NCBI RefSeq assembly: GCF_009914755.1
Contig: NC_060944.1
Origin: the human T2T-CHM13v2.0 reference genome, Homo sapiens
Direction: 5' to 3' (one strand)
Length of the DNA stretch: 64,000 nucleotides
The position numbers and the translations under genes were made by a program. The notes under the pieces were generated by a model that did no database searches, was not told the origin of the DNA, and saw only the letters and a program-made list of their open reading frames with translations. Shown here one piece after another: positions 39,701-42,700 of this stretch. The stretch's first letter is position 1. The number at the start of each line of letters is the position of its first letter.

Positions 39701-42700
39701 TCACAGTTGTTGCATACCTGCTGGGTGCCAGGGCAAAGCTGGCCCGTTTCCTACAAACTGGCTCCTTTATTTTTTTTTTTTGTTTATGTTTTTTTGAGAT
39801 GGAGTCTCACTCTATCGCCCAGGCTGGAGTGCAGTGATGCGATCTCGGCTCACTGCAACCTCCTCCTCCTGGGTTCACACCATTCTCCTGCCTCAGCCTC
39901 CCGAGTAGCTGGGACTACAGGCTCCCGCCACCATGCCGGGCTAAATTTTTTGTATTTTTAGTAGAGACGGGGTTTCACCATGTTAGCCAGGATGATCTCG
40001 ATCTCCTGACCTTGTGATCCACCCGCCTCGGCCTCCCAAAGTGCTGGGATTACAGGCGTGAGCCACCGCACCCGGCCACAAACTGGCTCCTTTATTATGT
40101 AAAGAATAAAGTGGGCTATAAAACATGAGAATATGCAGGCTGACCCCCAAAAGCCTGACACCCTTGAAAACCCACTCCCCCATGTCTCAGATGGCTTTCA
40201 TGGGGGCAGGAGAAAGGATAGTGACCTTAAGTCTTCTCCCGTGACGGTGACAGCTCGTTTGCCAGCTGTTGCTGGAACCGGCCCTGGATTTAGAGGAAGG
40301 CGTGGAAGTTCAAGACTCAAGATACTTCCTGGATAGAGAATAACTGGAAAGGCTCAAGTAAGTTTTTCCGAAGCTCTCGCCTTAGGAGGAGTTCAGCCTG
40401 GAATAAGAGCGTGTGTTAGTTTTGTCATCCCACCTAACTACAGATTGAATTACCCTGATAGGTTTTTAAGCCATTCCAGTGTGCATTATCTCAATAAAGC
40501 TGTTATTTAAAAAAAATACTAGATTGCAGTTTTAAAATACTTAAATTTTACAGCTTCTAAAAAAGGAAAGTTATTTCCAACCAGAAAAGTAAAGTAGAAA
40601 ATGGATTCTTTGCGCAGAGCATGGTGGCTTACGCCTGTAATCCCAGCACTTTGGAAGGCAGGGGCAGCAGGATTGCTTGAGGCCAAGAGTTCGAGACCAG
40701 CCTGGGCAACATAGAGAGACCCTGTCTCTACAAAAGATTTAAAATTACCTGGGCATGGTCGGGCACCGTGGCTCACGCCTGTAATCCTAGCACTTTAGGA
40801 GGCCAAGGTGAACGGATCACAAGGTCAGGAGATCGAGACCATCCTGGCTAACATGGTGAAACTCCATCTCTACTAAAAATACAAAAAATTAGCCTGGCGT
40901 TGTGGTGGGCACCTGTAGTCCCAGCTACTCGGGAGGCTGAGGCAGGAGAATGGCGTGAACCCGGGTGGGGCGGAGCTTGCACTGAGCTGAGATCTCGCCA
41001 CTGCACTCCAGCCTGGGCAACAGAGCGAAACTCCATCTCAAAAAAAAAAAAAAATTATCTGGGCACGCTGGCACACACTGTAGTCCTAGCTACTTGGGAG
41101 GCTGAAGTGAGAGGAACACTTGAGCCAGGGAGATGGAGGCTGCAGTGTGCCCTCATTGCACCACTGCACTCCAGCCTGGGTCCCAGAGCGAGGCCCTGTC
41201 TCTGAAAAAAAAAAAAAAAATTATATCTGCAAAGACCCTATGTCCAAATAAGGTTCCATTCACAGGTACTTGGAGTTAGGACATCAGCATCTCTCTGGGG
41301 AGCACATTTGACCCGCGACGCTGGCGTTCATCTCTGTCTTAGTTGTCATATTAACCATTTCGTTTCTTAGCTTTCCATTTGTATTTCTATAAGATAAAGG
41401 TGTAGTATAGTATTTGAATGGTTGTGAAAAAATAAACATGCCGAAGCAATGGATTTGGTTTTGGGATTCCAAAGTTACCGTGTCGTGAGTGGGCCACAGA
41501 ATGAGCCCCCTTAGCCCAGGTGGGGAAAGTCATTTCTGTGTCTCCTCCTCCCTCCAGGAAACTCCCAGTACAGCCAGCAGCAGGCCGGGTACCAGCAGGG
41601 TGCCGCGCAGCAGCAGACGTACTCCCAGCAGCAGTACCCCAGCCAGCAGAGCTACCCCGGGCAGCAGCAGGGCTACGGTAAGAGGCGAGCACGGTCCTCG
41701 GGGCCCCCCAGCGCCCACCCCTGCCCCTGCCACACATGGGTACGTGCTCAGTACCCCAGCCAGCAGAGCTACCCTGGGCAGCAGCAGGGCTACGGTAAGA
41801 GGCGAGCACGCTCCTCGGGGCCCCCCAGCGCCCACCCCTGCCCCTGCCACATGTGGGTACGTGCCCGGTGACCCTGGTGCTCAGGCAGATGTGTAATAAA
41901 CTTATTTTGAATACCTTTAGGTTTCCAGAAAAGTTGGAAACATCCATGCACGTAGACCTGAAACATCTTATTTTAACTTAAACATAAATTCATTGCCCAC
42001 GTGGCCTGTGACGGGAGCCAGTGTCCCGTGTATCCATCACCTGCACGCCTCAGGCCCAGCTTCAACCTCTTTGACAGAGCAGGTCAAAGCCTGTGGGTCT
42101 CAGCCTTCACTGCAGCTTACAATCACCCAGGAAACTTCTGAAAAATAAGGTGTGGGCTGCCCCAGGTCTTTTGTTGGAGCAAGATCTCAGTTCTCAGGAT
42201 GAGCTCCACACACGTGGTTTCTTATGAGGCACGTGCCTGATTCTGCTGTGCTTATTCAGCCCTTTACAGCCATTACTAATTAAATAGTATAAAAATTACT
42301 TGAGGCCAGGCGTGGTGGCTCACGCCTATAATCCCAGCACTTTGGGAGGCTGAGGTGGGCGGATGACCTGAGGTCAGGGGTTCAAGACCAGCCTGACCAA
42401 TATGGTGAAACCTCGTCTCTACTAAAAATACAAAAATTAGCTGGGCATGGTGGTGGGGGCCTATAGTCCCAGCTACTCAGGAGATGAGACAGGAGAATTG
42501 CTTGAACCAGGAGGTAGAGGTCGCAGTGAGCCGAGATCACACCACTACACTTCAGCCTAGGCGATAGAGTGAGACGACTCCTCAAAAAATAAAAAAATAA
42601 ATTACTTGAGGCTCAGTGTGGTGGCTCATGTCTATAATCCCAGCACTTTGGGAGGCTGAGGCAGGAGGATTGCTTGAGCCCAGGAGTTCGAGACCAGCCT

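What the first reader, a model, noticed from the sequence alone, without database searches (positions are those of the whole stretch)
41632..41864. 117-bp duplication creates a second, in-frame, stop-free copy of the SS18L1 exon 9 donor
Seen: the last 46 nt of exon 9 plus 71 nt of intron are duplicated, giving identical donors GGCTACG|GTAAGA at 41677/41678 and 41794/41795. Since 117 = 39x3 and reading through meets no stop, using the second donor inserts [39 protein letters not shown]. That is a basic KRRAR patch, an HPCPCH motif and a repeated QPGY module within the prion-like domain. The few mismatches suggest a recent event. Known: the downstream (intron-proximal) of two identical donors is often competitive, and SS18L1 variants and aggregation are linked to ALS. 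Inference: a possible lineage-specific or polymorphic 435-aa CREST isoform, easily hidden by short-read mis-mapping because the 46 nt before each donor are nearly identical (one C/T difference, ccccggg versus ccctggg).
Basis: partly seen in the sequence, partly recalled or inferred. Interest (0 to 1): 0.8.

Follow-up and report, generated by a model that had tools for sequence, protein, structure and literature searches.

The report
Duplicated splice donor in SS18L1 intron 9
A 117-base stretch spanning the end of SS18L1 exon 9 and the start of its intron is present twice in a row, giving a second identical splice site that could add 39 amino acids, but it is most likely a silent or rarely used decoy of a kind already known in other human genes.

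Summary
Window 41632-41748 and 41749-41865 are two head-to-tail copies of a 117-nt unit with 5 mismatches. The unit is the last 46 nt of SS18L1 exon 9 plus the first 71 nt of intron 9. The donors ACG|GTAAGA at 41677/41678 and 41794/41795 are identical from -19 to +16.

No evidence was found that this donor is used. The RefSeq table supplied with the finding ends exon 9 only at 41677. Two searches of a 5.8-billion-protein database found no protein with the insert. Five literature searches found no report. An open frame is expected by chance: 70% of shuffles of the GC-rich intron part are stop-free. The 4.3% divergence between copies argues for an old duplication, not a recent one. A green-monkey read-through protein model hints that Old World monkeys have one copy.

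Repeats that span an exon-intron boundary and repeat the donor are a described class (F7, LMNB2, PDGF, IFI6, CBS). In most, only the upstream donor is used. My best reading, at 0.6, is an old and probably ape-lineage two-copy repeat whose second donor is a silent or minor pseudo-site. RNA data, which I could not examine, would decide.

The parts
41558..41677 (+). SS18L1 exon 9 (annotated), part of the Q/P/G/Y-rich C-terminal region
   Evidence: Hub RefSeq table. The frame was checked by translation and by joining the coding exons (396 aa, no internal stop).
41632..41748 (+). Repeat copy 1: last 46 nt of exon 9 plus first 71 nt of intron 9
41749..41865 (+). Repeat copy 2, wholly inside annotated intron 9; 112 of 117 positions identical to copy 1
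41675..41683 (+). Donor 1, ACG|GTAAGA: the annotated exon 9 donor (cut between 41677 and 41678)
   Evidence: Hub table; (6 of 9 matches to CAG|GTAAGT)
41792..41800 (+). Donor 2, ACG|GTAAGA: the duplicated pseudo-donor (cut between 41794 and 41795). Its use would extend exon 9 by 117 nt (39 aa, in frame).
41678..41794 (+). The 117 nt that would become exonic if donor 2 were used. It holds G-runs at 41700, 41738, 41776 and 41787, and C-runs at 41704, 41718, 41724 and 41754.
41869..41871 (+). TGA that ends the frame if both donors are read through (409-aa product)
43393..43520 (+). SS18L1 exon 10, the shared acceptor for either donor
   Evidence: Hub table; (acceptor ...TCTTCTCAG|GGT)

Best explanation
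This is an old two-copy tandem repeat of 117 bp whose first unit spans the SS18L1 exon 9 / intron 9 boundary. The authentic donor is therefore repeated once, 117 nt into the intron.

Shown: the repeat, its boundaries, the identity of the two donors, and the in-frame stop-free path.

Inferred: the duplication arose by slippage or unequal exchange in the ape lineage after the split from Old World monkeys. It has since drifted neutrally, with three of the five differences being CpG-type transitions. The second donor behaves as a 5' pseudo-site that is silent or used only at a low level. Exon 9 is defined from its acceptor to the first downstream donor (exon definition, or 5'-to-3' oriented selection as shown for F7 intron 7). 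The 71 intron-derived bases, rich in G-runs and C-runs, would be poor exon material if donor 2 were used. On this reading the 39-aa peptide is a translation of intron sequence with no selected function.
For: The repeat and donors are established.

No annotated use: the hub's RefSeq table (11 SS18L1 transcripts) lists exon 9 only as 41558-41677 and lists no exon ending at 41794.

No protein with the insert: a search with residues 36-78 of the extended exon found 1 hit among 125 candidates of 138-2000 aa and 0 among 10 candidates of 42-137 aa. The single hit, P0002 (Chlorocebus sabaeus SS18L1, 368 aa), is exons 1-9 plus 23 read-through residues and then ends. It is not a donor-2 product.

Neutral drift of the intron part: P0002 is identical to human over all 39 exon-9 residues. 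In the 25 intron-derived residues it has 2 substitutions and 2 single-residue gaps in the BLASTP alignment.

The open frame is not special: 70% of shuffles are stop-free, and a 117-nt length has a 1-in-3 chance of being a multiple of three.

The insert matches no Pfam family at E up to 1.

Precedent (PMC1557585; abstract, Introduction and Discussion read): in F7 intron 7 a 37-bp minisatellite spans the exon-intron boundary and only the most upstream of 5-9 identical donors is used. The same is reported there for LMNB2 (100-bp unit) and PDGF (81-bp unit), the units closest in length to 117 bp.

Age: 5 of 117 differences give a Jukes-Cantor distance of 0.044, or 15-44 Myr at 1.5-0.5e-9 per site per year (rates recalled). 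P(5 or more differences) is 0.014 at human-chimpanzee-level divergence.
Against: No RNA data were available, so non-use of donor 2 is inferred from annotation and databases only. Absence from RefSeq is not proof.

The protein database is clustered at 90% identity, so a 435-aa isoform could be hidden inside the canonical cluster.

Model substrates with two identical strong donors 45 nt or more apart splice almost wholly from the intron-proximal copy, which here is donor 2 (PMC3413131).

Pseudo-sites are used in IFI6 (6-16) and CBS (PMC1557585 Introduction).

Predicted RNA structure gives no reason to prefer donor 1: mean unpaired probability is about 0.49 for both.

The silencer role of the G- and C-runs is inference and was not tested. 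The single-copy state in green monkey is inferred from one protein model, not from DNA.
Confidence: 0.6

Rival explanations
1. Donor 2 is a genuine alternative 5' splice site, used at an appreciable level in at least some tissues such as neurons. It would produce a lineage-specific 435-aa CREST isoform with a basic, Cys/His-containing 25-residue patch plus a repeated QPGY module inside the prion-like region.
For: The donors are identical from -19 to +16. The product is in frame and stop-free at 435 aa, so it would escape nonsense-mediated decay. The extended exon would be 237 nt, a normal size. Predicted accessibility is equal for both donors. Model substrates favour the intron-proximal of two identical donors (PMC3413131). 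IFI6 and CBS use such repeated sites.
Against: No exon ending at 41794 appears among the 11 RefSeq transcripts in the hub table. No protein with the insert was found in the two database searches. No report was found in five literature searches. The closest natural analogues with 81-100-bp units use only the authentic donor. The intron-derived peptide is not conserved in the green-monkey model and matches no domain. The open frame is expected by chance.
Confidence: 0.22
2. The duplication varies in copy number in humans (1, 2 or 3 units, like a small minisatellite), or is peculiar to this assembly. The second donor would then be present only in some people.
For: Tandem repeats spanning exon-intron boundaries are often polymorphic; F7 intron 7 has 5-9 copies. 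Only one haploid assembly was examined.
Against: Five fixed differences between the copies exclude a recent duplication and an assembly artefact of the collapsed or expanded-identical-copy kind. The copies are old enough to be fixed, and two diverged copies recombine less readily than long arrays. No VNTR report for SS18L1 was found (0 relevant of 17 and 2 papers by title and abstract listing).
Confidence: 0.1
3. The duplicated donor is not spliced but is functional as a U1 snRNP binding site. A second U1 bound just downstream would help definition of exon 9, or would suppress premature cleavage or intron retention.
For: Two U1 snRNPs can bind two alternative donors on one pre-mRNA in complex E (PMC3413131). 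Donor 2 keeps a perfect core despite 5 changes elsewhere in the unit.
Against: With only 5 changes in 117 nt, an intact 9-nt core is expected by chance (about 68% if changes fall at random; my arithmetic, (108/117)^5). No data on U1 occupancy or on exon 9 inclusion were available.
Confidence: 0.08

Closest known systems
F7 intron 7 37-bp minisatellite (Borensztajn et al. 2006, PMC1557585)
   Same: The first repeat unit spans the exon-intron boundary, so the authentic donor is followed by identical pseudo-donors in the intron. In F7 only the most upstream one is used, although the others are functional when tested.
   Different: F7 has 5-9 copies of a 37-bp unit holding only 4 exonic bp, and it is polymorphic. 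SS18L1 has 2 copies of 117 bp holding 46 exonic bp. Use of its second site would be in frame and would also repeat a protein module. Use or non-use in SS18L1 has not been measured.
LMNB2 (100-bp unit) and PDGF intron 4 (81-bp unit) boundary-spanning minisatellites, as summarised in PMC1557585
   Same: Long repeat units reiterate the donor, and only the authentic donor is reported to be used (Introduction). These are the closest in spacing to 117 nt.
   Different: They have 10-18 copies against 2 here. I read only the summary in PMC1557585, not the primary papers.
IFI6 (6-16) intron 2 and CBS intron 13 minisatellites
   Same: The donor is reiterated by a boundary-spanning repeat. Here the two nearest pseudo-sites ARE used, giving in-frame protein variants.
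   Different: These are many-copy arrays, with short repeat units by my recollection. I did not read the primary papers.
Engineered duplicated 5' splice sites (globin C174C, adenovirus Ad1CC; Hodson et al. 2012, PMC3413131)
   Same: Two identical donors more than 45 nt apart compete for one acceptor.
   Different: These are short artificial single-intron substrates with consensus or strong donors, and they splice almost wholly from the intron-proximal site. SS18L1 has a natural internal exon, a 1.6-1.7-kb intron and a donor with 6 of 9 consensus matches.
FGG exon 8-intron 8 403-bp junction duplication (PMC9052919)
   Same: A tandem duplication that duplicates a donor.
   Different: It is a pathogenic recent mutation. 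The main product retains the intron, with several aberrant transcripts. SS18L1 evidently tolerates its duplication, since the canonical mRNA is the reference transcript.

Membership tests
Tandem repeat / minisatellite whose first unit spans an exon-intron boundary (F7 IVS7 class) | Head-to-tail repeat whose first unit contains the 3' end of the exon and the donor | tested here: met
   Copy 1 (41632-41748) covers exon positions 41632-41677 and intron positions 41678-41748. Copy 2 follows directly.
Tandem repeat / minisatellite whose first unit spans an exon-intron boundary (F7 IVS7 class) | [quoted passage not shown] | tested here: met
   ACG|GTAAGA at both sites; identical from -19 to +16.
Tandem repeat / minisatellite whose first unit spans an exon-intron boundary (F7 IVS7 class) | Array of many copies (5 or more) with copy-number polymorphism | tested here: not met
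   2.0 copies in this assembly. Polymorphism could not be tested. It is therefore a two-copy duplication of the same architecture, not a minisatellite in the strict sense.
Tandem repeat / minisatellite whose first unit spans an exon-intron boundary (F7 IVS7 class) | Only the most upstream donor is used physiologically | not testable with these tools
   No RNA data were available. Indirect evidence: the hub RefSeq table has no exon ending at 41794, and no protein with the insert was found.
Alternative 5' splice site giving an in-frame exon extension | A second GT donor downstream that shares the acceptor, with an extension that is a multiple of 3 and stop-free | tested here: met
   +117 nt, giving a 435-aa product with no internal stop.
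Alternative 5' splice site giving an in-frame exon extension | Transcript or protein evidence that both donors are used | not testable with these tools
   No RNA-seq, EST or long-read resource was available. Protein searches found 0 proteins carrying a donor-2 product, among 125 and 10 candidates scored. Literature searches were negative.
SS18/SSXT family (host gene) | The exon belongs to SS18L1, and its paralogue SS18 has the homologous exon | tested here: met
   Hub annotation. The green-monkey SS18L1 model P0002 carries PF05030 and is identical over exon 9. The SS18 exon matches at 84% over 50 nt and has the same exon end.

The most novel reading that the evidence does not exclude
Donor 2 is used in a tissue- or state-dependent way, for example in neurons or when hnRNP/SR balance shifts. 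That would make an ape-specific 435-aa CREST isoform in which an intron-born basic Cys/His patch and an extra QPGY module sit inside the prion-like domain of a gene implicated in ALS. The isoform could change nuclear-body formation or aggregation. The locus would also be a natural human test of whether the intron-proximal or the upstream copy of two identical donors wins in vivo.
Probability: 0.15. Interest if true: 0.6.

Novelty: new member of a known kind. Interest (0 to 1): 0.3.

Why it matters
If donor 2 is silent, this is one more example of a known oddity. It still has practical uses.

- It can mislead variant calling. The C/T at coding position 1017 (Pro339, position computed from the hub's exon table) and other differences between the copies can look like SNPs.
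- It can mislead variant interpretation. A donor-1 mutation would probably be rescued in frame by donor 2, giving +39 aa instead of exon skipping.
- It offers a clean natural substrate for the unresolved question of how one of two identical donors is chosen.

If donor 2 is used, a primate-lineage-specific isoform of an ALS-linked, aggregation-prone BAF subunit would be worth study.

Tried and rejected
(1) RNA structure as the discriminator. Partition-function folding of five windows around the repeat gives mean unpaired probability 0.43-0.50 for donor 1 and 0.49 for donor 2. There is no difference, so I dropped this.

(2) Protein-domain meaning of 'KRRAR' and 'HPCPCH'. Pfam gives 0 families at E up to 1 for the 39-aa insert and for the 78-aa extended exon. 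No support for a motif.

(3) Open frame as a sign of selection. Rejected: 70% of shuffles are open, and 2 of 3 real frames are open.

(4) Assembly artefact. Rejected: the two copies differ at 5 sites, and the locus is unique in the assembly.

(5) Other products of the duplication. The GT at 41740 (TGG|GTACGT, +62 nt) and a 43-nt mini-exon from the AG at 41750-41751 to donor 2 would both shift the frame. They were not pursued.

(6) Microhomology at the duplication ends. Only 7 of 12 ungapped matches exist between the start of the unit and the flank after copy 2. This is too weak to claim a mechanism.

(7) Literature.
- 'SS18L1' with 'splice': 101 papers, 25 listed. I read passages of four of them (PMC11031479, PMC8152502, PMC7498333, PMC6513904).
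- 'SS18L1' with 'tandem repeat': 17 papers.
- 'SS18L1' with 'A5SS': 1 paper.
- 'SS18L1' with 'isoform' and 'QPGY': 5 papers. I read passages of PMC3307773.
- 'SS18L1' with 'VNTR': 2 papers.
None of the listings or passages read mentions this duplication or an exon 9 alternative donor. The SS18L1 splicing events I found concern other exons or an unnamed annotated or cassette exon. Supplementary tables were not opened and could hold junction-level data.

(9) Primate DNA. No tool holds primate genomes, so the copy number in apes and monkeys could not be read directly.

Full report
**Observation.** The sequence read at 41400-42100 shows SS18L1 exon 9 ending ...GGCTACG at 41677, followed by GTAAGAGG. 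The same string appears again 117 nt downstream.
- The repeat finder reports 2 copies of 117 nt, 41632-41748 and 41749-41865, at 96% identity.
- Tandem Repeats Finder reports period 117, 2.0 copies, 96% matches, no indels, score 438.
- A 25-nt pattern across the donor occurs exactly twice in the 64-kb window, against 0 expected in 100 shuffles.
- The five differences are at 41658/41775 (C/T, -20 from the donor), 41694/41811 (G/C, +17), 41735/41852 (C/T, +58), 41736/41853 (A/G, +59) and 41748/41865 (T/C, +71).

The two donors ACG|GTAAGA are therefore identical from -19 to +16. Each matches the consensus CAG|GTAAGT at 6 of 9 positions.

**Reading frame.** Reading through the second donor as well meets TGA at 41869-41871. 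Joining the annotated coding exons by coordinates gives 396 aa with donor 1 and 435 aa with donor 2, each with no internal stop and the normal terminator in the last exon.

The open frame is weak evidence of anything. The unit is 71% G+C. In 70% of 20,000 shuffles of the 71 intron bases there is no stop in that frame, and 2 of the 3 frames of the real 117 nt are open. With the 1-in-3 chance of a length divisible by three, an in-frame stop-free duplication of this sequence has roughly a 1-in-4 prior chance.

**Uniqueness and the paralogue.** A search of the window's own assembly finds the repeat only here. The only other match is an 84% match of 50 nt to the homologous exon of SS18 on contig 18. 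That SS18 exon ends with the same GGCTACG|GTAA. Its intron is AT-rich and unrelated, and there is no duplication. The donor context is therefore old, and the duplication is specific to SS18L1.

**Age.** Five differences in 117 nt is 4.3% (Jukes-Cantor 0.044). With recalled primate substitution rates of 0.5-1.5e-9 per site per year, this gives 15-44 Myr. The error is very wide because only five events are counted.

Three of the five are CpG-type changes. CCCGG against CCTGG is one. The adjacent CA/TG pair is what two independent decays of one ancestral CG would leave; this is my reading. At human-chimpanzee-level divergence (1.2%, recalled), 5 or more differences have probability 0.014. If the local rate is doubled the probability is 0.15. 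Orangutan-level to Old-World-monkey-level divergence fits comfortably. 'Recent' and 'polymorphic' are thus not the natural reading, and an assembly artefact is excluded by the differences themselves.

**A monkey outgroup, seen indirectly.** I searched a 5.8-billion-protein database with residues 36-78 of the extended exon. Among 125 candidates of 138-2000 aa, one protein scored. It is a 368-aa UniRef model of Chlorocebus sabaeus SS18L1 (P0002). It is identical to human over the 39 exon-9 residues, then continues with 23 intron-derived residues and ends at ...RAQ.

This is an intron read-through model, not a donor-2 product. Its end falls where the human single-copy flank has ...RAR followed by a stop. 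This is what a single-copy intron with one CpG change would give. If the monkey had the duplication, the frame should run on into YPSQQ.... I take this as a hint, not proof, that Old World monkeys lack the duplication, because it rests on one protein model and no DNA. In the BLASTP alignment the intron-derived part differs from human by 2 substitutions and 2 single-residue gaps in 25 residues, while the exon part is unchanged. That is the pattern of neutral intron sequence.

**Is donor 2 used?** I could not examine RNA. The indirect evidence is negative.
- The RefSeq table supplied by the hub (11 transcripts) has exon 9 only as 41558-41677.
- The 'longer' protein search found no protein with the full insert. 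The 'near' search (42-137 aa) found none among 10 candidates. Clustering at 90% identity could hide an isoform, so this is weak evidence.
- Five literature searches on SS18L1 (with splice, tandem repeat, A5SS, isoform plus QPGY, and VNTR) gave no report of the duplication or of an exon 9 alternative donor.
- The passages I read concern an unnamed annotated exon (PMC11031479), exons 2-3 (PMC8152502), a cassette exon (PMC7498333) and BAF complex membership (PMC3307773).
- Supplementary tables were not opened.

**What is known about such arrangements.** Two bodies of work point in opposite directions.

In short model pre-mRNAs with two identical strong donors, both bind U1 snRNP. Splicing is almost wholly from the intron-proximal copy once the sites are 45 nt or more apart (PMC3413131, passages).

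Natural genes in which a repeat spans the exon-intron boundary behave differently. In F7 intron 7, 5-9 identical donors 37 nt apart are present and only the most upstream is used. The others are functional when the upstream ones are destroyed. The authors excluded secondary structure and local intronic elements, and they proposed a 5'-to-3' oriented selection (PMC1557585: abstract, Introduction, Discussion). The same Introduction reports the following:
- In LMNB2 (100-bp unit) and PDGF (81-bp unit), only the authentic donor is used.
- In IFI6 and CBS, the two nearest pseudo-sites are used.

[quoted passage not shown] Outcomes are therefore context-dependent. The natural cases closest in spacing to 117 nt favour the upstream donor.

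**Mechanism proposed.** Exon 9 is recognised from its acceptor (...CCTCCCTCCAG|GAA) to the first competent donor downstream. Donor 2 then lies in the intron and is removed with it. If donor 2 were chosen, 71 nt of intron-type sequence would have to serve as exon. That stretch carries GGGG at 41700, GGG at 41738 and C-runs at 41704, 41718 and 41724. From general knowledge, G-runs between competing donors favour the upstream one. That step is inferred and was not tested.

Predicted RNA structure does not distinguish the donors: mean unpaired probability is about 0.49 for both. Pfam finds nothing in the insert.

**Verdict.** The anatomy and the theoretical possibility of a 435-aa isoform stand, but recency, polymorphism and actual use of donor 2 are unsupported, and on balance use of donor 2 is unlikely to be more than minor.
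- Old two-copy boundary-spanning repeat with a silent or minor pseudo-donor: 0.6.
- Appreciably used alternative donor: about 0.2.
- Copy-number polymorphism: about 0.1.
- A non-splicing U1-binding role: below 0.1.

The last two are not exclusive of the first. This is a new member of a known kind. It gives the locus some interest if RNA data ever show donor 2 in use.

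Noticed in passing
window 43518-43526 (exon 10 / intron 10 boundary): The annotated donor of SS18L1 intron 10 is CAG|GCAAGC, a GC-AG intron. The hub table also lists another transcript whose exon runs on from 43393 to 45194, that is, reads through this donor. 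A weak GC donor could explain that.
   Followed up: no
window 41737-41745 and 41854-41862: Each repeat unit also carries a second donor-like site, TGG|GTACGT, with 6 of 9 consensus matches. Using the first one would add 62 nt and shift the frame.
   Followed up: partly
window 41700-41751: The junction between the two copies creates ...CCCACCCCTGCCCCTGCCACACATGGGTACGTGCTCAG|TACCCC, a C-rich tract ending in AG. With donor 1 upstream and donor 2 downstream, this could define a 74-nt intron and a 43-nt mini-exon, out of frame. A comparable product was seen in the FGG duplication.
   Followed up: partly
window 41575-41670: Exon 9 itself is built of degenerate 15-21-nt CAG-rich repeats: 5 copies of a 24-nt family at 67-100% identity, and TRF periods of 15 and 18. 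These encode the QQ(x)Y(P/S) modules of the QPGY region.
   Followed up: no
P0002 (Chlorocebus sabaeus SS18L1 model, 368 aa): The only database protein carrying intron-9-derived residues is a green-monkey model that reads through the exon 9 donor and lacks exons 10-11. It is probably an intron-retention or truncated gene model.
   Followed up: partly
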